From Lachnospiraceae bacterium (GTDB lineage Bacteria > Bacillota > Clostridia > Lachnospirales > Lachnospiraceae): a DNA stretch of 64,000 nucleotides. The translations under genes were made by a program, and so were the position numbers. The DNA lies in NCBI GenBank assembly GCA_031556725.1, contig JAVBSL010000016.1, positions 6,364 to 70,363 of the forward strand, given 5' to 3'. The notes beneath the pieces were generated by a model, which was not told the DNA's origin, ran no database searches, and saw only the letters and a program-made list of their open reading frames with translations. This document shows, one piece after another, positions 5,643 to 59,072 of this stretch (position 1 is the stretch's first letter; each line of letters opens with the position of its first letter).

Positions 5643-7187
5643 AATAGATTTTTTCTGTGAAACCTCAACTTTTCTGTTATAGCAGGAAAATACCGCATCA
5701 ATTCGCTTTTCTTCGGGCTTTTTCGTCAATAAGCTTACTACCGGTACTATCACCAATCCTGCTACCATTGCTAAAGCTCCGGCATTAATAGGGGATTTCA
5801 GCATAGTTGGGAAATATTTTCCGAACAACAAATTAGCAGTCATCAGAACCGTTCCGAAGATAAAGCTGCACCATACTGCCGGGGCTGTAGCCCTTTTCCA
5901 GTACAACCCATACAGGAACGGAGCCAGGAAAGCTCCTGCCAGTGCTCCCCAGGAAATACCCATCAACTGAGCAATAAAGGTAATTCTGCTCTTATACTGA
6001 ATAATTGCAATTACTACCGAAATAGCAATAAAGACAACAATTAAAATACGCATAACCAATAACTGTTTTTTCTCACTCATATTCTTAACAATATTGTCCT
6101 TCAAAAAGTCCAGTGTTAATGTGGAACTGGAAGCCATAACTAATGATGACAAAGTAGACATCGAAGCTGACAGTACCAAAATAACCACCAACCCGATTAA
6201 TAATGGCGACAGGTTCGATAACATTGCCGGAATAATTGCATCAAAGCCTTCTTTAGCCACATCAATTTTATCCGAATACAGTCTTCCGAATCCGCCCAGA
6301 AAATAACATCCACCGGAAATTACCAAAGCAAAAACTGTGGAAATAATAGTTCCCTTGCTAATAGCCCGTTCGCTTTTAATAGCATAAAACTTCTGTACCA
6401 TCTGCGGCAATCCCCAGGTTCCCAAAGAGGTTAACAGGATAACACCCAGCAAATTAACCGGATCGGGGCCGAAGAAGGAAGCAAATACCCCCGGCTGTGT
6501 CGAAACAGCCACATCCTCCACATAAGCCAGACTGTTAACCGCCTCCATAAAGCCGCCATTAGATTTTAATACTGCTGCCACAACTGCCACGATACCCACA
6601 AGCATAATAATTCCCTGAACAAAATCATTGATTGCGGTAGCCATATATCCGCCGGCTATTACATACACCCCTGTTAATACCGCCATTACAATAATACAAA
6701 TGGAATAATCAATATTAAATGCCATTCCGAAAAGTCGTGATAATCCATTATATAGGGATGCGGTATAAGGAATCAAAAATATGAAAACAATTGCGGATGC
6801 TCCGATTTTAAGAGCATTGCTGTCAAATCGCTTGCCAAAAAATTCCGGCATGGTAGCACTGTTCAAATGCTGGGACATAACTCTGGTCCGCCGGCCCAAA
6901 ATCACCCAGGCTAACATGGAGCCGATCAGGGCATTGCCGATACCGATCCAGGTCGATGCCAGGCCATATTTCCAGCCAAACTGACCTGCATATCCCACAA
7001 AAATAACTGCTGAAAAATAGGAAGTCCCGTAAGCAAATGCCGTCAGCCAGGGACCCACACTTCGTCCCCCTAAAACAAATCCGTTTACATCTGTGGTATG
7101 TTTGCGGCAGTATAACCCAATTCCAATCATAACTGCAAAAAATACCACCAACATCAATATTTGTATAATCATTTTCTCCATCCTCAC
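5631..7187 (-). CDS. Sodium:solute symporter family (SSS) transporter
   Basis: 518 aa with about 13 predicted TM helices and SSS-like motifs (GGRSVGPWLTAFAYGTSYFSA). The start may be a downstream in-frame Met (MEKM/MIIQ). Confidence 0.85.
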   Translation of the reverse strand: MRMEKMIIQILMLVVFFAVMIGIGLYCRKHTTDVNGFVLGGRSVGPWLTAFAYGTSYFSAVIFVGYAGQFGWKYGLASTWIGIGNALIGSMLAWVILGRRTRVMSQHLNSATMPEFFGKRFDSNALKIGASAIVFIFLIPYTASLYNGLSRLFGMAFNIDYSICIIVMAVLTGVYVIAGGYMATAINDFVQGIIMLVGIVAVVAAVLKSNGGFMEAVNSLAYVEDVAVSTQPGVFASFFGPDPVNLLGVILLTSLGTWGLPQMVQKFYAIKSERAISKGTIISTVFALVISGGCYFLGGFGRLYSDKIDVAKEGFDAIIPAMLSNLSPLLIGLVVILVLSASMSTLSSLVMASSSTLTLDFLKDNIVKNMSEKKQLLVMRILIVVFIAISVVIAIIQYKSRITFIAQLMGISWGALAGAFLAPFLYGLYWKRATAPAVWCSFIFGTVLMTANLLFGKYFPTMLKSPINAGALAMVAGLVIVPVVSLLTKKPEEKRIDAVFSCYNRKVEVSQKKSIGEE

Positions 7188-15040: not shown

Positions 15041-15070
15041 TTCCATTGTCAACACTTTTATGAAAAATAA

Positions 15071-15150
15071 AAAATGCGAAATGTCCGTCAGTATCAGACA
15101 CAATTTCCAAGTGTCTGATAATGGCGTACATTTCGCATTTTATTGTTTTT
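15071..15150 (-). terminator. Long-stem terminator downstream of ilvE
   Basis: An imperfect stem of about 28 bp (atgcgaaatgtccgtcagtatcagacac / gtgtctgataatggcgtacatttcgcat), flanked by an A-run and a T-run. Confidence 0.65.
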
Positions 15151-23861: not shown

Positions 23862-24920
23862 TCAGCCGGTGGCTGGTGTTTCATTATCTTTAAAAGAGTC
23901 TCCGCATCTGGTACAGACATGCTGGGTATATCCCTTTTCTGTAGCAGTCGGTTTTATAATGGTAATTGCATAATTATGATTATCTTTATTGATGGGTATG
24001 GGTTCTATGTCTTCCGCGCCGCAGGAACAGTTTCCTGTTTTAATGCCCGCCTCGTTACAAGTAGCATCTTTATACACATACCAGACAAAACTATGGCTAT
24101 GCGGTGTAGGCGTGGGTGCTGCCGTAGGTGTTGGGCTGGGTGACGGCGTAGCTCCCGACGGAAGGGGCGATGTACTGGGTGATGGTGTGGGCGGCAGCTT
24201 GTCAATCGAACGGGAATCTATTAAAGTATGACATACATTACAAATCTTTTGTTTCAGCCCGGTCTCTGATATAGTTGCTTCCTTAATTACCGTCCAGTCT
24301 CCGGCCAAATGTCCGATTGCCGAAATATTTTGCTGATAGAAGGAACCACAGCTACAGGTATATCTTTTGATTCCCGCAACCGTACAAGTCGGTTCACTTT
24401 CAATGGATGCTATATACGCATGAACGTGGTTGGCACTGGCTGCCGCTCCGGTGGCCGGAATGATTTCCCGGGCAATCAGCTCATCACAATAAATACACTT
24501 CTTCACCCGTAATCCGGACTGATTTGCCGTAGGCTCTGTGGCAACCTCCCAATCATCAGCCACATGTCCTGCTGTGGGTATTTCCACATAATAAAAATCG
24601 CCGCAACTACAGATATATTTCATCCGACCGGCAGACATACAGGTTGCCTGTATATCTATCGTTTCCTTATAATCATGTACATGTCCTGCCAGCGTACTGC
24701 CGCTGCTTTCCGGTGTTGCCGTAGCATCTGTCGCTTCTCCGGCCTGTGCTTCCGCTGTCGGGGATTCGGTGGCGACAGCTATCGGTGCAGCATTTCCGCC
24801 CATATTGGGGTGAACCGAAGCATATATGATAACCCCTACTGTTGTCAGACATACTACTACTGCCAGTATTCCCAATATTGCATTCAGTACCTTCAGTATA
24901 CCGCTCATATTAATCCTCAC
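23862..24920 (-). CDS. Membrane-anchored protein with three Cys/His-rich ~78-aa repeats and a Pro/Thr/Ser linker
   Basis: 352 aa with an N-terminal TM helix (aa 8-34). Repeats start at H80, H165 and H274, each with the pattern HxH...TC..aG....CSCG...H...G....C..C. The PTPSPSTSPLPSGATPSPSPTPTAAPTPTP linker precedes repeat 3. Confidence 0.7.
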   Translation of the reverse strand: MRINMSGILKVLNAILGILAVVVCLTTVGVIIYASVHPNMGGNAAPIAVATESPTAEAQAGEATDATATPESSGSTLAGHVHDYKETIDIQATCMSAGRMKYICSCGDFYYVEIPTAGHVADDWEVATEPTANQSGLRVKKCIYCDELIAREIIPATGAAASANHVHAYIASIESEPTCTVAGIKRYTCSCGSFYQQNISAIGHLAGDWTVIKEATISETGLKQKICNVCHTLIDSRSIDKLPPTPSPSTSPLPSGATPSPSPTPTAAPTPTPHSHSFVWYVYKDATCNEAGIKTGNCSCGAEDIEPIPINKDNHNYAITIIKPTATEKGYTQHVCTRCGDSFKDNETPATG

Positions 24921-32183: not shown

Positions 32184-32455
32184 GGGGCCCGGCTCAGCCG
32201 TCTGACTCGTTTAAATAGGTAATACACAAGTGTTTCTGCGATTTTTGAAAATTTGTAATGATTTCTTAGTGAAAAATTTTATAGCTTCAATTAAAAATCA
32301 GCAACTGTCCGACGAACAACGTGAGGAGTTTTGCTGATTTTTGATTTGCCTTTTGCTATAAAATTTTCCACTTAGAAATCAAACAAATTAGAAACATGAG
32401 CAGAAATTCTTGTGTACTACATATTTAAACGAGTCAGACGGCTGAGCCGGGCCCC
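32184..32455. repeat. 272-nt imperfect palindrome (long hairpin element C) between convergent genes
   Basis: The outer 33 bp are perfect (ggggcccggctcagccgtctgactcgtttaaata / tatttaaacgagtcagacggctgagccgggcccc). Further paired blocks are atttcttagtgaaaaattttatagc / gctataaaattttccacttagaaat and aaaaatcagcaa / ttgctgattttt. Confidence 0.85.
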
Positions 32456-36832: not shown

Positions 36833-37255
36833 TTACACATCTGTTTCCATAAATTCATAAGAAACATCAAATCCATTCATCAAAACTTCCATTTTAACTA
36901 ACTCACTCATTAATTCGGAACGTTTTACATTATCCAGCTGACTAATCTTCTTATTATATATGGAAACCGTATATGTCCGAGTCTCCTGACTTTCCCTTTC
37001 ATCGTTTGCTGTCCCCTTCGCAACCTCCTTCGGAGAAATCACCTTCGTCATATTAATCCCGCTGTTATAATACCCCGCCTCATCCAAAAAGTTCCTTAAC
37101 CCGCTCCGATATTCCTTCTCCATCACCTGATAATACCGCTCATCTTCATGAGACACCTTCCTCTCCTTCCCCACCACCTGAATAGAACAACCACACAAAA
37201 AAATAACCGTAAACAAAACCACCAACCTCACCCAATTGCTTTTCATCCTTTTCAT
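36833..37255 (-). CDS. Small lipoprotein, unknown function
   Basis: A signal peptide plus lipobox (VIFLCGCS). The start was set at MKRMKSNW (ATG 37255) behind ggagg. Confidence 0.6.
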   Translation of the reverse strand: MKRMKSNWVRLVVLFTVIFLCGCSIQVVGKERKVSHEDERYYQVMEKEYRSGLRNFLDEAGYYNSGINMTKVISPKEVAKGTANDERESQETRTYTVSIYNKKISQLDNVKRSELMSELVKMEVLMNGFDVSYEFMETDV

Positions 37256-37398
37256 CCCATTACCTCCGTCCATCCCACACCTTTAATCTCTTAACAACTC
37301 TGTAATTCCATCATAGCAGTTCAAGTGTCCCATAAAACGGACTCCGTAATGTAAATTGAAAATTTATAATAATGCCACCGGTCTGCAAGCGGTGCTCA

Positions 37399-37531
37399 CG
37401 GAAAACCCAGCGGCCCCCCAAAACCGTGGCAAAAGGACAGAAACGGAAACGAGATATCGTAATTTATTCCATTACAATACCTCGCTCCGCTTCTGTCCTT
37501 TCCACAACCTCCAGGCCGCGTCCCCCTTCCG
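37399..37531 (-). repeat. Long hairpin element D (core-deleted relative of the 41.8-kb and 58.9-kb elements)
   Basis: The loop is ttattcc (37464-37470). The arms are aaaggacagaaacggaaacgagatatcgtaat / attacaatacctcgctccgcttctgtccttt, and pairing extends outward to about 37399/37531. The transition-type mismatches I could align (about ten) are G.U on the minus strand. Confidence 0.75.
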
Positions 37532-37551: not shown

Positions 37552-38529
37552 CTACACGCTATATTTCACTATCAGCAATTCCACACTCATGATATCATTC
37601 ATTCGTCCGGTTTTTACTGCTTCCTCCGCTTCCACACAGGCCGTCACTGCTTTCCGCAGATCCTCCCGCTTGAACTTGGCCGCCTGGGCCACATACTTCC
37701 CGGCAATAAACCCCGGCAGATTTACCTTGGCACCGATAGCCTTGTTATCATACCCTTTTCCTTTCAGTTCTTTAACCTGCAGCAAGACGTTAAACTGTCT
37801 GGCAATCAGAAACAATATCCGCATCGGCTGTTCTTTCAGTGCCAGCAAATCATAATAAAGCCGCAATGCTTCTTTTTGCTTTTTATCCGCTACCGCACCC
37901 ACCATATCAAAAATATGATTGGAAATACGGGTGGTACAGATCGTATCTACATCATTTTCGGTAATCACATCCCGGTCCATGCAATAGCAGACCAGTTTTT
38001 CCAGTTCGCCCTTAATATTCTCCATATCGGTGCCGGTCTTGCCAATCAGATATACTGCTGTACGCTCGGTAATCTGCTTTCCTTCTTTTTTCAGAATACC
38101 GGCAATCCAGCGTTTTAAGGTGTCCTCATCCTGTTCGGGGAATTCCACCGCCCCGCTCATTCCCTGCAGCAGCTTGAACATCTTCCCCCGCTTGTCCACC
38201 TCAGCCTCCACAAACAGAATGCTGGTGCTTTCCGGAACACTTTTCAGATATTCAATCATCTTTTCATCCGCGCTCTTGAACAAACCGCTGTTTTCCCAGA
38301 TAATCACCCGTCGGTCAGCAAAAAAGGGCAGGGTTTCCGCCAAATCAATGATTTCCGGAACAGTGACTGCTTTTCCTTCATAATAGTTATAGTTCATGGT
38401 ATCCTCGTCGCTGATAAGGACCTTTTTTAATTTATCCCGATATTGCCTGCGGAGATAGGATTCTTCTCCGTAAAACAGATAGATCTGTTTCAAATTTCCT
38501 GTTTTAATATCTTCATTCAGTGCCTTCAT
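37552..38529 (-). CDS. holA: DNA polymerase III subunit delta
   Basis: HolA-like (IYLFYGEESYL...). The start was set at MKALNED (ATG 38529) behind agaggg. Confidence 0.8.
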   Translation of the reverse strand: MKALNEDIKTGNLKQIYLFYGEESYLRRQYRDKLKKVLISDEDTMNYNYYEGKAVTVPEIIDLAETLPFFADRRVIIWENSGLFKSADEKMIEYLKSVPESTSILFVEAEVDKRGKMFKLLQGMSGAVEFPEQDEDTLKRWIAGILKKEGKQITERTAVYLIGKTGTDMENIKGELEKLVCYCMDRDVITENDVDTICTTRISNHIFDMVGAVADKKQKEALRLYYDLLALKEQPMRILFLIARQFNVLLQVKELKGKGYDNKAIGAKVNLPGFIAGKYVAQAAKFKREDLRKAVTACVEAEEAVKTGRMNDIMSVELLIVKYSV

Positions 38530-38659
38530 TGGTTCGCCCTCTATTCTTATCTGAATCAATTATACCTTGCCTACATTCGGAAAATCAATAGTTGCAACAT
38601 AAAACTAATGGTGGTATACTAAATCCTTGGAATTTACAACAAAAAGAAATGAGGTATTT

Positions 38660-40541: not shown

Positions 40542-41753
40542 TCATTTAATGATTTTCAGAAATTTCTTTTTCCCGATTTTTACTACTTCATTGCATATCA
40601 TTACCCGCGTCAGATCTTCCATAGTAAATTTTTCACCCTCAATGCTGATGCCACCTTGCGCAAGAAGCCGGTTGAACTCGCTTTTGCTAGATACATAACC
40701 TTCAGACACGAGCTGCGGAATGATATCTTTCAGGAGGTCACCTTCCACATCAATGACCAGTTCGGGAACATCATCCGGGATGCCCTTGACAGAAAAGGCT
40801 GCATGATAAAAAGCTTTTGCCTTTTCTACTGCCTCGGCATCATGGTATAGGGAAGTAATGGTTTCAGCCAGCGTTAATTTAATATCTCTGGGGTTGGCTC
40901 CTTCAGCCAATTGTTTTCCAATAGCTTCTATCTCATCGGGATGAACATCCGTAACCAGTTCAAAGTAACGAATAATCAAGTTGTCCGGCACTTCCATAGC
41001 CTTTTTAAACATCACCTGCGCCGGTTCATCAATACCAATGTAATTCCCCAGACTCTTGCTCATTTTCTCCACCCCGTCCAATCCTTCCAATATGGGCATA
41101 AAAAGGGCAATCTGCTGCTCTTTCCCCATAGCCTTCTGCAGGGTTCTTCCCATCAGAATATTAAAAGTCTGATCCGTACCGCCCATTTCAATGTCCGCAT
41201 TTAGATGCACCGAATCATAAGCCTGCATCAACGGATAAAAAAACTCATGGATACCGATCGGCACCTGATTACGGAAGCGGTTCTCAAAATCATCCCGCTC
41301 CAGCATCCTCGCCACCGTAGTCACCGACGCCAGCTTAAGCACCTCCTCCAAAGCAAGCTTCGAAAGCCACTCACTGTTAAAACAAACCTGCGTCTTTTCC
41401 CGATCCAACACCTTAAATATCTGTGCGCAATAAGTAGCCGCATTCTCCCTCACCTGTCCTTCGGACAGTGCACTTCTTCCTTTTGCCTTCCCCGTAGGAT
41501 CCCCAATCTTACCGGTAAAATCACCGATAATAATCACAGCCTTATGCCCCATCTCCTGCATCTGCCTAATCTTCCGAAGCACCACCGTATGCCCCAAATG
41601 AATATCCGGAGCCGTTGGGTCAAGCCCTAACTTAACAACCAGCGGTTGCTTAGCAGCAACCGATCTTTCCAGCTTAGCCAACAATTCCTCACGATTCACC
41701 AACTTACAAACGCCCTTTTCAATAATCCTGATTTGTTCCTGTGCACTTAACAT
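40542..41753 (-). CDS. tyrS: Tyrosine--tRNA ligase
   Basis: 403 aa; HIGH-type motif (DIHLGH), KMSKS, and a C-terminal S4-like domain. Confidence 0.95.
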   Translation of the reverse strand: MLSAQEQIRIIEKGVCKLVNREELLAKLERSVAAKQPLVVKLGLDPTAPDIHLGHTVVLRKIRQMQEMGHKAVIIIGDFTGKIGDPTGKAKGRSALSEGQVRENAATYCAQIFKVLDREKTQVCFNSEWLSKLALEEVLKLASVTTVARMLERDDFENRFRNQVPIGIHEFFYPLMQAYDSVHLNADIEMGGTDQTFNILMGRTLQKAMGKEQQIALFMPILEGLDGVEKMSKSLGNYIGIDEPAQVMFKKAMEVPDNLIIRYFELVTDVHPDEIEAIGKQLAEGANPRDIKLTLAETITSLYHDAEAVEKAKAFYHAAFSVKGIPDDVPELVIDVEGDLLKDIIPQLVSEGYVSSKSEFNRLLAQGGISIEGEKFTMEDLTRVMICNEVVKIGKKKFLKIIK

Positions 41754-41786: not shown

Positions 41787-41998
41787 CCGACAATTACAAG
41801 ACTTATACTCGGCAACGAGATGCTACAATTTATTTTGTGTAAATCCCTTTTTGTCACGAAAATGAAACTTTAATTCGTGGAGCTCGCTTGTGCGAACACG
41901 AATTATGCTTAAGGTTCATTGTAGTGTTTGGCAAAACAGGATTGGAACAAAATAAATTGTCGCATCCCGCTGCCGAGTATAAGTCTTGTAATTGTCGG
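41787..41998 (-). repeat. Long hairpin element A (212 nt) inside the tyrS 5' leader
   Basis: The outer 28 bp are perfect (ccgacaattacaagacttatactcggca / tgccgagtataagtcttgtaattgtcgg) and pairing continues to an apical region near 41881-41897. The core is homologous to 58938-58980. Confidence 0.85.
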
Positions 41999-42017: not shown

Positions 42018-42329
42018 AAAAAAATCCCGTCCTCATGTTTCCATAAGGACGAGATGTATCTCGCGTTACCACCTTATTTTATAAACAGCTCACACTGTTT
42101 ACCTCATCAGGTACGGTCCTGCTCCTACTGCTGCCGGCGATACCCTTGCACACGATGACGGGGTGCTTATCCGTCGCAGCCTACTTAGTTTCCCGTTCGG
42201 TGCGCAACTCAAAGAGGTATTCACATCCGCTATCCCCACGCCTCTCATCGACCGGCTGCTTTCTGTCAGGCTTCCTGAATGTTACTATTTCTTATCATAG
42301 TCTTTGCTTTCTCTATGAAATTGTTAATT
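42018..42329 (-). promoter_or_regulatory. T-box riboswitch leader, tyrosine specifier (UAC), with terminator
   Basis: All reads are minus-strand:
- Stem I 5' side: CUAUGAUAAGAAAUAGUAAC (K-turn/AGUA).
- Distal motif: ACAGAAAGC.
- Specifier context: GUGAA-UAC-C (UAC = 42219-42217).
- T-box sequence: AAUAAGGUGGUAACGCGAG (about 42061-42079).
- Terminator: CGUCCU...AGGACGGG plus U7 (42018-42053). Confidence 0.8.
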
Positions 42330-44568: not shown

Positions 44569-44675
44569 AATTCCTCCATTCGCTTAATAAACTCCATTAT
44601 AATTTCGAAAATCTTAATTTCAATAAACTTTCGATGAATTGCATTTTAGCGAGGTGAGTTGCATCTGAAACGGGC

Positions 44676-44710
44676 AAAAAAAGACGAGGTTCATAACATC
44701 CTCGTCCCTT
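44676..44710 (-). terminator. Intrinsic terminator of mgtE
   Basis: On the minus strand: gacgagg-atgttatgaa-cctcgtc followed by T8. Confidence 0.6.
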
Positions 44711-44730
44711 GCGTTCTGTTCACTCACAGT

Positions 44731-46080
44731 TTATATCTTTAATATTCTCTGAGCAATCTGGAAATATACAATTAAAGACAGTGCATCTACAATCGTGGTG
44801 ATAAAAGGGCTTGCCATAACCGCCGGGTCCAGGCCGATTTTTTTTGCCAATATGGGTAAGGTACAACCAATAATTTTGGCTAAAATGACCGTTACCACAA
44901 TCGTCAGACATACTACCATGGCTACCGGAATCCCAACCTTATCAAACAGCATCAGTTTAACAAAATAAGCGCCTGAAAGTGTAATTCCACAGCAAATTGA
45001 TACTAATATCTCTTTTCCCCAAATGGTGGGAATATTTTTATATTCAATTTCTCCCAGTGACAACCCACGGATTATGGTTACACTGGCCTGCCCGCCGGCA
45101 TTACCACCGGTATCCATCAGCATCGGAATAAAGGCCATCAGGATTGGAACAATACTTAAGGCCTCCTCAAAGGAGGTAATGATCTTGCCGGTAAAAGTCG
45201 CTGAAATCATCAGCAGCAACAGCCAGGGTATCCGGCTCTTCCAGGTTTCAAAAACACCCGTTTTTAAATAGGGCTTATCCGTCGGCACAATAGCGGCCAT
45301 TTTCTCGATATCTTCCGTGGTTTCTTCTTCCAGGATATCCACAACGTCATCCACGGTAATGATACCTACTAACCGGTTTTCGTTATCTACTACCGGCATC
45401 GCAATAAAATCATATTTGGAGAACTGTCTGGCAACCTCTTCCTGATCCATAAGGGTATTCAGATAAATAACGTTCTCACTCATAATATCACTGATTACGG
45501 TGTCTGCTGAACTAAGCAGCAACTGACGCAGGGCTACCGCTCCTACCAGTGTTCGTTTTGAATCTAATACATAACATACATTGATGGTTTCACTATCCAC
45601 ACCCACCCTGCGGATTCGGGCAACAGCTTCTTCCACTGTCATATCTTCCTTCAAATCCACATATTCTACCGTCATAATGCTACCGGCAGAGTCTTCCGGA
45701 TAGCGCAGTAAATGGTTAATATCCCTGCGAGTCTCCGCATTGGCATTAGCCAACAATTTTTTTACCATATTAGCAGGCATTTCTTCCAGAAAATCTACCG
45801 CATCATCGGCCATCAGGTTATTAATGATATTAGCCGCTTCCCGGTCAGACAAGGACGTGATAATATATTGCTGATCATCCACCTCCAGATAGGAAAAAAC
45901 ATCTGCTGCCATACTTTTGGGCAGAATCCGGAAAATCTTTAACTGCGCTTCCTCCTCCAGTTCTCCCATGACTACAGCAATATCGGCAATATTCATATCT
46001 GCCAGTCTTTGACGAAGTCTTGTATATTGCTTAGTCTCCAACAGTTCCTTGATTACATCTAACTCCTTGATTTCGTCCAT
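44731..46080 (-). CDS. mgtE: Magnesium transporter MgtE
   Basis: 449 aa with an MgtE N-domain, tandem CBS domains and a C-terminal TM domain (DTGGNAGGQ). Confidence 0.95.
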   Translation of the reverse strand: MDEIKELDVIKELLETKQYTRLRQRLADMNIADIAVVMGELEEEAQLKIFRILPKSMAADVFSYLEVDDQQYIITSLSDREAANIINNLMADDAVDFLEEMPANMVKKLLANANAETRRDINHLLRYPEDSAGSIMTVEYVDLKEDMTVEEAVARIRRVGVDSETINVCYVLDSKRTLVGAVALRQLLLSSADTVISDIMSENVIYLNTLMDQEEVARQFSKYDFIAMPVVDNENRLVGIITVDDVVDILEEETTEDIEKMAAIVPTDKPYLKTGVFETWKSRIPWLLLLMISATFTGKIITSFEEALSIVPILMAFIPMLMDTGGNAGGQASVTIIRGLSLGEIEYKNIPTIWGKEILVSICCGITLSGAYFVKLMLFDKVGIPVAMVVCLTIVVTVILAKIIGCTLPILAKKIGLDPAVMASPFITTIVDALSLIVYFQIAQRILKI

Positions 46081-58543: not shown

Positions 58544-58857
58544 ATGTTTCTTCCTTTCTGCTTATTGGCAGAAAGTTTCTCATCTATGTCTCTCTGCCTG
58601 TTTATTAGGGATTTCAGCAAAGAGTTCAGATCTTGAGATAGCCCAATACGGCTAAAGAAATATAGATAAAAAAGTTTAGAATTCATTGCTTATCCGTATC
58701 GTAACATATGGATATTAAAAAGTAAATCTATTTCGTGCGAGCGCCATACCTGCTGTTTCACTGCCTGATGTATGAATGGTTGTGAAGGTTTTAACCCTCA
58801 CTCGCTTTTTAAAGTTTTTTCGCAAAGTGCAAGTTGAGATACCGGCCCGCAGGGCCG

Positions 58858-59056
58858 TTAGATTAAGGCAAGAGCCAGCAACGAGAAAAAGCAATTTATT
58901 CCGTAAAAATCCCTTTTTACCATGGAGATGAGACTTAAATTCGTGGAGCCCGCTCGTGCGAACACGAATTTTGCTTAAGGCTCATCGAAATGCTTGGTAA
59001 AACAGGATTTGAACGGAACAAATTGCTTTTCTCATTGTCGGCTCTGCCTAATCTAA
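58858..59056 (-). repeat. Long hairpin element B (199 nt), homologous to element A
   Basis: The arms are ttagattaaggcaagagccagcaacgagaaaaagcaatttattccg / cggaacaaattgcttttctcattgtcggctctgcctaatctaa. The core 58938-58980 is almost identical to 41872-41913. It starts 17 nt after the stop of the isomerase-like gene. Confidence 0.85.
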
Positions 59057-59072
59057 CCCCCGCCGCCCCGAT

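What the first reader, a model, noticed from the sequence alone, without database searches (positions are those of the whole stretch)
37399..37531. Core-less relative of the hairpin family whose mismatches are G.U only on the mRNA-sense strand
The 5' arm of element D, ...cggaaacgagatatcgtaatttattcc, matches the family block in A (cggcaacgagatgctacaatttatttt) and in B (cagcaacgagaaaaagcaatttattcc). It then turns back after a 7-nt loop (ttattcc, 37464-37470). It therefore looks like a family member lacking the central core of about 110 nt.

I traced the pairing by hand out to about 37399/37531. Every mismatch that I could align as a transition is A.C or C.A on the plus strand, and therefore U.G or G.U on the minus strand. 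The positions are 37454/37480, 37458/37476, 37443/37490, 37424-37425/37506-37507, 37422-37423/37508-37509, 37420/37511 and 37404-37405/37525-37526.

The minus strand is the strand of the flanking holA and lipoprotein genes. Both purine and pyrimidine transitions occur within the same arm. Selection on an RNA duplex would produce that pattern, whereas one-directional deamination damage would not.
Basis: partly seen in the sequence, partly recalled or inferred. Interest (0 to 1): 0.62.

Follow-up and report, generated by a model that had tools for sequence, protein, structure and literature searches.

The report
Core-less hairpin repeat after holA
Just after the holA gene of an uncultured gut Lachnospiraceae bacterium lies a 133-base hairpin, a shortened copy of a repeated palindromic element, whose imperfect pairs are all of the kind that RNA tolerates on the messenger strand; this suggests it is kept as an RNA structure, which is interesting but of a kind already known in bacteria.

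Summary
As RNA, window 37399-37531 folds to -74.7 kcal/mol on the minus (holA-sense) strand and -51.4 on the plus strand. The minus strand has 13 G.U pairs; the plus strand has none. In the inner stem (37420-37511) there are 32 Watson-Crick pairs, 9 G.U pairs, no A.C pairs and no transversions.

D is a real relative of elements B (58857-59057) and A (41787-41998). It lacks their apical domain of about 125-134 nt. Its loop, GGAAUAA, is stem sequence in A and B, so D is an asymmetric internal deletion derivative.

The apical domain is multi-copy in the source metagenome and appears in metatranscriptome contigs. The closest relative genome lacks both D and A. It has a plain intrinsic terminator where D sits.

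Best reading: D is a truncated member of a lineage-private, MITE/bcr1/ERIC-like palindromic repeat family. It is co-transcribed in the holA 3'UTR and held under RNA-level pairing constraint, probably as a 3'-end protective or processing hairpin.

No RNA contig covers D itself. The size of the bias and internal controls still favour selection. I rate it a new member of a known kind, of moderate interest.

The parts
37399..37531 (-). Element D: a long imperfect hairpin of 55 predicted pairs. The part from about 37407 to 37519 is robust; the outermost pairing is ambiguous.
   Evidence: RNA fold -74.7 (minus) against -51.4 (plus). 13 G.U pairs on the minus strand, 0 on the plus.
37464..37470 (-). 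The 7-nt loop, GGAAUAA in RNA sense. It is homologous to 3'-arm stem sequence of A and B and marks the internal deletion.
37461..37470 (-). Conserved family block GGAAUAAAUU (plus strand aatttattcc). It is identical in B; A has AAAAUAAAUU.
37448..37454 (-). Conserved family block UCUCGUU (plus strand aacgaga), identical in A, B and D. The 5'-arm partners differ only by G.U-compatible changes: AGCGAGG in D, AGCGGGA in A, AAUGAGA in B.
37552..38559 (-). holA (DNA polymerase III delta subunit). The called product is 325 aa, starting at about 38529. The stop codon lies 20 nt upstream of D.
37375..37392 (-). A weak small hairpin followed by an interrupted U-rich tract. It aligns with the canonical intrinsic terminator of the closest relative, so it is the decayed ancestral holA terminator.
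36833..37273 (-). Downstream small ORF with a lipobox-like signal (FLCGC), a putative lipoprotein. It has no Pfam match.
58857..59057 (-). Element B, a full-length family member that starts just after the stop codon of a fucose-isomerase-like gene (stop codon 59073-59075). Its multi-copy conserved unit is 58891-59026.
41787..41998 (-). Element A, a full-length family member inserted between the tyrS T-box terminator and the tyrS ribosome-binding site.

Best explanation
D is a truncated copy of a lineage-private family of palindromic intergenic repeats. Elements A and B in this window, and roughly ten or more further copies in the source metagenome, belong to the same family.

A full-length copy is a hairpin of about 200-210 nt. 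It has a sequence-conserved apical domain of about 134 nt and a basal stem that varies between copies but always stays paired. D lost the apical domain by an asymmetric internal deletion and kept the basal stem.

D sits 20 nt after the holA stop codon with no terminator in between, so it must be transcribed as part of the holA 3'UTR. This step is inferred from position. There it would fold into an RNA duplex of about 55 bp. That fold is predicted, not measured.

The stem has accumulated only substitutions that keep RNA pairing: A-U to G.U and G-C to G.U on the sense strand, plus full compensatory changes relative to A and B. This indicates purifying selection on the RNA hairpin, not on the DNA palindrome.

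The most likely role, which is inferred, is as a 3'-end structure of the holA transcript. It could block 3'-to-5' exonucleases, or act as a processing or termination boundary that separates holA from the downstream lipoprotein gene. In that role it would replace the canonical terminator, which the nearest relative still has at this spot and which has decayed here. Cleavage of so long a duplex by RNase III is plausible but untested.
For: - Strand asymmetry and pair statistics.
- Family homology and the deletion geometry.
- Compensatory evolution. In the three-way table, B and D share 36 paired columns: 18 identical, 6 changed on one side, 12 changed on both sides. A against B gives 73 pairs, 17 changed on both sides, 6 on one side and none broken, with G.U pairs conserved at the same columns.
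- Polarised G.U origins include both A-to-G (5 cases) and C-to-U (2 cases).
- Insertion polymorphism. The closest relative, L009 (holA 90% aa identity, syntenic at about 82% nt identity), lacks D and A and has a 10-bp intrinsic terminator after holA. That terminator aligns with a degenerate hairpin 6 nt downstream of D.
- Multi-copy and transcribed. At 80% likeness, 22 DNA contigs and 14 RNA contigs match B's apical 134 nt. Summed depth is 200-320 against about 30 in the flanks. One 669-nt RNA contig spans a whole copy.
- An RNA contig joins the gene upstream of B to the 5' half of B at gene-like depth. No RNA contig covers the 3' half or the next 270 nt, although a DNA unitig does. This fits a transcript boundary at B.
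- All three family members lie in the same orientation relative to their transcription units, in UTRs.
- Precedent. bcr1 in the Bacillus cereus group is transcribed, unevenly distributed between related strains, and keeps its RNA structure through compensatory changes (PMC3184786). Correia elements are cleaved by RNase III, and ERIC elements affect mRNA stability in an orientation-dependent way (PMC2229807, PMC10969869).
Against: - No RNA contig covers holA or D in the only two metatranscriptomes available. These are held as assembled contigs only, so absence of a contig is uninformative.
- D has no close copy at 80% likeness or above in the metagenome. Selection is therefore inferred from a single sequence plus two diverged relatives.
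- The window has a strong GC skew, +0.2 on the minus strand, so some G.U excess is expected from mutation alone.
- A and B show only a mild bias in their arms, 2:1 and 3:1.
- D is not followed by a proper U-tract, so it does not look like a terminator.
- No target-site duplication, conserved outer terminus or cognate transposase was found, so mobility is inferred only from presence/absence and copy number.
- The function as a stabiliser, boundary or RNase III site is wholly inferred.
Confidence: 0.6

Rival explanations
1. D is a dead relic of the repeat family. Its G.U-only pattern would then be a mutational footprint. Strand-asymmetric deamination of C (to U) and A (to hypoxanthine, read as G) on the sense, leading DNA strand, acting on an originally perfect palindrome, gives G.T mismatches on that strand in both arms without any selection.
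For: - Strong GC skew across the whole window.
- The minus strand of D is very rich in G and U: G 48, C 24, U 36, A 25.
- Both polarised change types, A-to-G and C-to-U, are deaminations of the same strand.
- The apical domain, which is the sequence-conserved part of the family, is gone.
Against: - Composition at four-fold and intergenic sites predicts a share of only 0.50-0.58, not 12 of 12 (p about 2e-4 to 2e-3).
- There are no transversions and no A.C mismatches among the 41 aligned base positions (44 alignment columns, 3 of them gaps) of the inner stem.
- Hairpin C lies on the same replication strand and shows 2:2 with 13 transversions. Hairpin I3 shows 0:3. The L009 hairpin shows no sense preference.
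- holA appears weakly expressed, so transcription-coupled damage should be low.
Confidence: 0.13
2. The constraint acts on single-stranded or cruciform DNA, not on RNA. The hairpin would be recognised on one DNA strand by a transposase, recombinase or replication factor, as with IS200/IS605 ends, REP/RAYT or attC sites, and G.T wobble pairs would be tolerated there.
For: - The family is palindromic, multi-copy and polymorphic for insertion.
- The multi-copy unit has sharp similarity boundaries with 13-nt inverted ends, GCAATTTATTCCG and CGGAACAAATTGC.
- The window cannot separate replication strand from transcription strand, because almost all genes lie on the minus strand.
Against: - With DNA parameters the two strands differ by only 4.7 kcal/mol, against 23.3 as RNA.
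- D lacks the conserved unit that a protein would presumably recognise, yet its stem is still kept paired.
- Elements known to act as single-stranded DNA use short hairpins, not stems of 55-100 bp.
- No transposase or RAYT gene was found in the surveyed neighbourhood (not exhaustive).
Confidence: 0.1
3. D acts on the downstream gene, or is a gene in its own right. It could be a 5'-UTR or leader structure, an attenuator for the lipoprotein gene, or a precursor processed into a small RNA.
For: - D lies 125 nt upstream of the lipoprotein start codon.
- Element A shows that the family can reside in a 5'UTR.
- Part of D's 3' arm is complementary to the downstream small hairpin (arms 37373-37385 and 37419-37431, 77% complementary). 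This would allow an alternative fold.
Against: - The relative L009 expresses the same gene pair without D, and the sequence conserved between the window and L009 starts downstream of D.
- No promoter-like site lies directly upstream of D on the minus strand.
- No Rfam family matches.
Confidence: 0.1

Closest known systems
bcr1 (Group A interspersed repeats of the Bacillus cereus group)
   Same: Both are intergenic repeats in Firmicutes of about 150-200 nt. Both are unevenly distributed between close relatives, transcribed with neighbouring genes, and keep their RNA secondary structure through compensatory base changes (PMC3184786).
   Different: bcr1 has defined terminal inverted repeats and a 5-bp target duplication, and folds as a cruciform-like double stem-loop. 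The present family is a single long hairpin. Its basal ends vary between copies, no target duplication is visible, and there is no sequence similarity to bcr1.
ERIC / Correia (NEMIS) / RUP-type bacterial MITEs
   Same: All are whole-element imperfect palindromes, co-transcribed into long RNA stem-loops in UTRs. Their effects on mRNA depend on orientation: RNase E exposure for ERIC, RNase III cleavage for Correia. Shorter internal-deletion variants exist (PMC2229807, PMC10969869).
   Different: Those families conserve their termini and duplicate TA or short targets. Here the apical 134 nt is the conserved part and the termini diverge. No RNase cleavage has been shown. The host is a Lachnospiraceae bacterium, and the family was not found in any collection searched.
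SPRITE and REP/BIME elements acting as 3'-end mRNA stabilisers or terminator-like repeats
   Same: They sit immediately after stop codons, and the upstream transcript is bounded by the repeat. D occupies the place of a canonical terminator.
   Different: REPs are GC-rich palindromes of 20-40 nt linked to RAYT transposases. SPRITE carries a true terminator with a U-tract. D is a 55-bp stem rich in G.U pairs and has no adjacent U-tract.

Membership tests
A/B hairpin family of this window | Shared arm sequence blocks (GGAAUAAAUU ... UCUCGUU) at the homologous position and in the same orientation | tested here: met
   E = 8e-5 against B; 0 of 1000 and 1 of 1000 shuffles; about 71% identity in both arms.
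A/B hairpin family of this window | Conserved apical domain of about 134 nt (window 58891-59026 in B) | tested here: not met
   D keeps only the first 12 nt (gtaatttattcc) and the last 5 nt (attac). The rest is deleted. At 80% likeness or above, nothing in the metagenome matches D except its own contig.
A/B hairpin family of this window | Long hairpin that is more stable on the strand of the surrounding transcription unit | tested here: met
   Differences in fold energy are 6.2 kcal/mol for A, 15.6 for B and 23.3 for D.
Bacterial MITE (Correia / ERIC / RUP / bcr1 type) | Dispersed multi-copy repeat in different flanking contexts | tested here: met
   There are three copies in 64 kb. In the metagenome, 22 DNA contigs match the B core, with distinct loose ends and 7-10 times the flank depth. 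D itself is single-copy.
Bacterial MITE (Correia / ERIC / RUP / bcr1 type) | Presence/absence polymorphism at orthologous sites in close relatives | tested here: met
   L009 lacks both A (26 nt there against 237 nt in the window) and D (145 nt against 303 nt).
Bacterial MITE (Correia / ERIC / RUP / bcr1 type) | Conserved terminal inverted repeats at the element ends | tested here: inconclusive
   The outer ends differ between A, B and D. Only the inner 134-nt unit has conserved 13-nt inverted ends.
Bacterial MITE (Correia / ERIC / RUP / bcr1 type) | Target-site duplication flanking the insertion | tested here: inconclusive
   The flanks of A and D cannot be aligned well enough with the empty sites in L009 to define a duplication.
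Bacterial MITE (Correia / ERIC / RUP / bcr1 type) | A cognate autonomous insertion sequence or transposase with matching ends | not testable with these tools
No transposase was seen among the window ORFs that were scanned.
Rho-independent (intrinsic) terminator | GC-rich stem followed directly by a U-tract | tested here: not met
   One search finds only weak internal or partial matches. The hairpin base is followed by ...GGGUUUUCCGUGAGC. The true terminator homologue is the decayed hairpin at 37375-37392.
Any Rfam family | Covariance-model match | tested here: not met
   The gathering-threshold scan of the window found only a T-box and a tRNA. The permissive scan over element A gave only spurious hits to plant miRNA precursors, far below threshold.

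The most novel reading that the evidence does not exclude
The family may not be an ordinary MITE. It may be a new class of cis-acting structured RNA in termite- and invertebrate-gut Lachnospiraceae. Members would have a sequence-constrained apical domain of 134 nt (invariant AAUUCGUGUUCGCA apex) on a freely covarying basal stem, with ten or more transcribed copies per genome placed just after stop codons or in leaders.

On this reading D shows that the basal duplex alone is functional and is kept by selection after the apical domain is lost. Its unusually high G.U content (22% of inner pairs) would be adaptive: it preserves a long RNA duplex while breaking the DNA palindrome that would otherwise be unstable during replication.
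Probability: 0.15. Interest if true: 0.65.

Novelty: new member of a known kind. Interest (0 to 1): 0.4.

Why it matters
If the reading is right, D is a clean natural example of a mobile palindromic repeat that has been domesticated at the RNA level. The part that makes the family recognisable has been deleted, the original terminator next to it has decayed, and yet the remaining stem evolves only through RNA-compatible substitutions. That separates selection for an RNA duplex from selection for transposition more sharply than intact MITEs usually allow.

It also flags an undescribed repeat family in uncultured gut Lachnospiraceae. One copy sits between a T-box riboswitch and its essential tyrS gene.

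The general phenomenon is already documented for bcr1, ERIC and Correia elements, namely MITE-like repeats that fold in mRNAs and affect stability or processing. A specialist would find this a neat case and not a surprise.

Tried and rejected
- Rfam. The gathering scan of the window and a permissive scan over element A found no family.
- Genome collection. A scan with the arm block RRAATAAATTN6TCTCGTTNCYG gave 8 hits in unrelated phyla, none in a hairpin, so all are chance matches. This used the only genome scan. It shows that the source genome is not among the species representatives.
- Metagenome collection. The apical-loop pattern gave 0 hits. The core-base pattern gave 32 hits, none resembling the core, so all are chance matches. 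Viral contigs gave 0 hits and 2 chance hits.
- A protein search with the spurious ORF that runs through element A, meant to catch other copies, found no candidate.
- The look-up of encoding contigs with the TTG-start holA ORF and with the first ORF of the window found nothing on record. The last ORF returned only a 2.8-kb contig.
- MAFFT misaligned D's 5' arm. I replaced that with a partner-by-partner table anchored on the 3' arm.
- Terminator-loop insertion. I considered that D had inserted into the loop of the ancestral terminator and rejected it, because the terminator homologue lies downstream of D.
- Empty target site. I considered that D is a site that never held the core and rejected it, because D carries the first 12 nt of the conserved unit as its loop and upper stem.
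- Other strand-asymmetric folds, such as 24040-24260, are purely compositional (z = 0.7).
- Hairpins C, I3, L009:3784-3954 and L013:~6040-6180 are unrelated in sequence to A, B and D.
- The RNA contig ends at hairpin C coincide with DNA unitig breaks, so they were discarded as assembly-graph artefacts.

Full report
**Observation**

Window 37399-37531 is an imperfect inverted repeat with a 7-nt loop at 37464-37470.

- As RNA, the minus strand folds to -74.7 kcal/mol with 55 pairs (z = -9.05). The plus strand folds to -51.4 kcal/mol with 42 pairs (z = -8.9).
- The minus-strand fold contains 13 G.U pairs and the plus-strand fold none.
Two further G.U pairs (37448/37485 and 37416/37513) were missed. 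The outermost register is ambiguous.
- A direct arm-against-arm alignment gives 44 Watson-Crick matches, 12 mismatches that are G.U on the minus strand, none that are G.U on the plus strand, 4 transversions (all in the outer part) and 6 gap positions. Within 37420-37511 the counts are 32 / 9 / 0 / 0 / 3.
- With DNA parameters the two strands differ by only 4.7 kcal/mol.
- In a sliding 133-nt scan of the whole window, D is the most stable structure and ranks among the top four of 4258 windows for strand asymmetry. The background is -5.3 +/- 6.8 kcal/mol in favour of the G-rich minus strand.
- An independent Logan contig from the DNA run matches the region without any difference.

**Surroundings**

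- The ORF at 37552-38559(-) is holA (Pfam DNA_pol3_delta and its C-terminal domain). Its stop codon is 20 nt upstream of D.
- The ORF at 36833-37273(-) has a lipobox-like signal and no Pfam hit.
- holA homologues place the organism among Lachnospiraceae from termite and other invertebrate guts.
- The window shows a GC skew of about -0.2 on the plus strand throughout. Nearly all genes lie on the minus strand.

**The family**

- Elements A (41787-41998) and B (58857-59057) are hairpins of about 200-210 nt. They are 80% identical over 148 nt.
- Both fold better on the minus strand: -115.6 against -109.4 for A, and -119.7 against -104.1 for B.
- A against B gives 73 consensus pairs. Of these, 17 changed on both sides, 6 changed on one side and none is broken. 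G.U pairs are conserved at the same columns.
- D matches B over 50 nt at 72% identity (E = 8e-5 in the window).
- D's RNA-sense 3' arm beats 1000 of 1000 dinucleotide shuffles against B and 999 of 1000 against A, at the homologous place.
- With gaps allowed, both arms of D and B are about 71% identical out to the GC-rich base.
- The blocks GGAAUAAAUU and UCUCGUU are shared. The 5'-arm partners of UCUCGUU differ only by G.U-compatible changes.
- D's loop GGAAUAA is stem sequence in A and B. D is therefore a B-type element with an asymmetric deletion of the apical roughly 125 nt, and not an ancestor that lacked the core.

**Copy number and transcription**

- When the metagenome contigs were laid on B at 80% likeness, 22 DNA contigs and 14 metatranscriptome contigs matched 58891-59026. 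They had different flanks. Summed depth was 200-320 (DNA) and up to about 120 (RNA), against about 30 and 14 in B's own flanks. One of the DNA contigs is element A. One 669-nt RNA contig spans a whole copy with flanks on both sides.
- At 95% likeness, an RNA contig joins the fucose-isomerase-like gene to the 5' half of B. No RNA contig covers the 3' half or the next 270 nt, although a DNA unitig does. This suggests a transcript boundary at B but does not prove it.
- D itself has no second copy at 80% or above and no RNA contig. holA and tyrS are not covered by any RNA contig, so transcription of D rests on its position alone.

**Comparative evidence**

- The nearest genome, L009 (GCA_031555615.1), has holA at 90% aa identity and is collinear at about 82% nt identity. 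It lacks A (26 nt there against 237 nt in the window) and lacks D (145 nt against 303 nt).
- After holA, L009 has a canonical intrinsic terminator with a 10-bp stem and a U-run. That terminator aligns with a weak hairpin and an interrupted U-tract at 37375-37392, just downstream of D.
- So D was inserted, or was retained only in this lineage, between the stop codon and the old terminator, and the terminator has since decayed.
- Conversely, L009 carries an unrelated 171-nt hairpin after mgtE where the window has a plain terminator. Long hairpins therefore come and go in this clade.

**Selection or mutation?**

Deamination of C and of A on the sense DNA strand would create G.U in both arms. The changes that can be polarised with A and B as outgroups are A-to-G (5 cases) and C-to-U (2 cases). 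The following still argue for selection:

- Composition at four-fold and intergenic sites predicts that only 0.50-0.58 of transition mismatches should be G.U on the minus strand. That gives p(12 of 12) of about 2e-4 to 2e-3.
- The inner stem has no transversions at all.
- Hairpin C lies on the same replication strand and shows 2:2 with 13 transversions. Hairpin I3 shows 0:3. The L009 hairpin has no sense preference.
- holA appears weakly expressed, so transcription-coupled damage should be low.
- The basal stems of A, B and D have diverged heavily yet remain paired. B and D share 36 paired columns, 12 of which changed on both sides.

RNA-level pairing constraint is therefore the best explanation, although it rests on few sequences.

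**Mechanism proposed**

D is co-transcribed in the holA 3'UTR and folds into an RNA duplex of about 55 bp. That duplex is maintained by selection, probably as a 3'-end protective or processing boundary that replaced the decayed terminator. RNase III cleavage is plausible.

- Shown: the structure prediction, the strand asymmetry, the homology, the insertion polymorphism, and the presence of relatives in RNA.
- Inferred: transcription of D, selection on the RNA hairpin, and its function.

**Comparison with known systems**

- No Rfam family matches.
- The family was not found in the GTDB species representatives, the JGI metagenomes, IMG/VR or the protein database.
- In kind it matches the transcribed, structure-conserving interspersed repeats bcr1, ERIC, Correia and RUP (PMC3184786, PMC2229807, PMC10969869).
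- It departs from the classical MITE definition in three ways. The apical domain, not the termini, is the conserved part. No target duplication is visible. No transposase partner could be sought.
- D fails the test for an intrinsic terminator.

**Verdict**

D is a new, truncated member of a new family belonging to a known kind of element. Interest is moderate.

Noticed in passing
window 41787-41998 (with the T-box at 42042-42307 and tyrS at 40542-41753, all on the minus strand): Family member A, a hairpin of about 100 bp, sits between the T-box terminator and the ribosome-binding site of the tyrosyl-tRNA synthetase gene. The relative L009 has only 26 nt there. A large structured insertion inside the leader of an essential gene regulated by a riboswitch is unusual.
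   Followed up: partly
window 58891-59026 (apical unit of B): This 134-nt unit is present at about 7-10 times flank depth in the DNA metagenome and at high depth in the metatranscriptome, with many different flanks. Positions 58957-58970 are invariant across copies, while the apical loop at 58950-58956 is variable. The unit has 13-nt inverted ends, GCAATTTATTCCG and CGGAACAAATTGC.
   Followed up: partly
window 32184-32455: Hairpin C is a 272-nt palindrome unrelated in sequence to A, B and D. It lies between the convergent PAP2-family and glycosyltransferase genes. It has no strand bias (2:2 G.U) and 13 transversion mismatches, and served here as an internal control.
   Followed up: partly
window 15063-15149: A hairpin with a 39-bp stem, followed on the minus strand by UUUUUUAUUUUU, lies downstream of an aminotransferase class IV gene. 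It looks like an unusually long intrinsic terminator. Its few wobble pairs favour the plus strand.
   Followed up: no
L009:3784-3954 against window 44664-44731: The closest relative carries an unrelated 171-nt hairpin after mgtE, with arms 91% complementary, where the window has an ordinary terminator. Another unrelated long hairpin lies at L013:~6040-6180. Long private palindromes seem to be gained or lost often in this clade.
   Followed up: partly
window 1-64000: GC skew is very strong and uniform, about -0.2 on the plus strand, and about 50 of 57 larger genes lie on the minus strand. The minus strand is therefore presumably the leading strand throughout. As a result, minus-sense RNA folds on average 5.3 kcal/mol better per 133 nt from composition alone.
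   Followed up: yes
window 24040-24260: This is the most plus-favoured fold in the window (-44.9 against -18.3). It lies inside a minus-strand ORF with no Pfam match. It is purely compositional (z = 0.7 against shuffles) and not a structure.
   Followed up: yes
window 42045-42074: A low-depth metatranscriptome contig matches the T-box terminator region with one extra A after 42057 and unlike flanks. It probably comes from a related strain or from another T-box leader.
   Followed up: no
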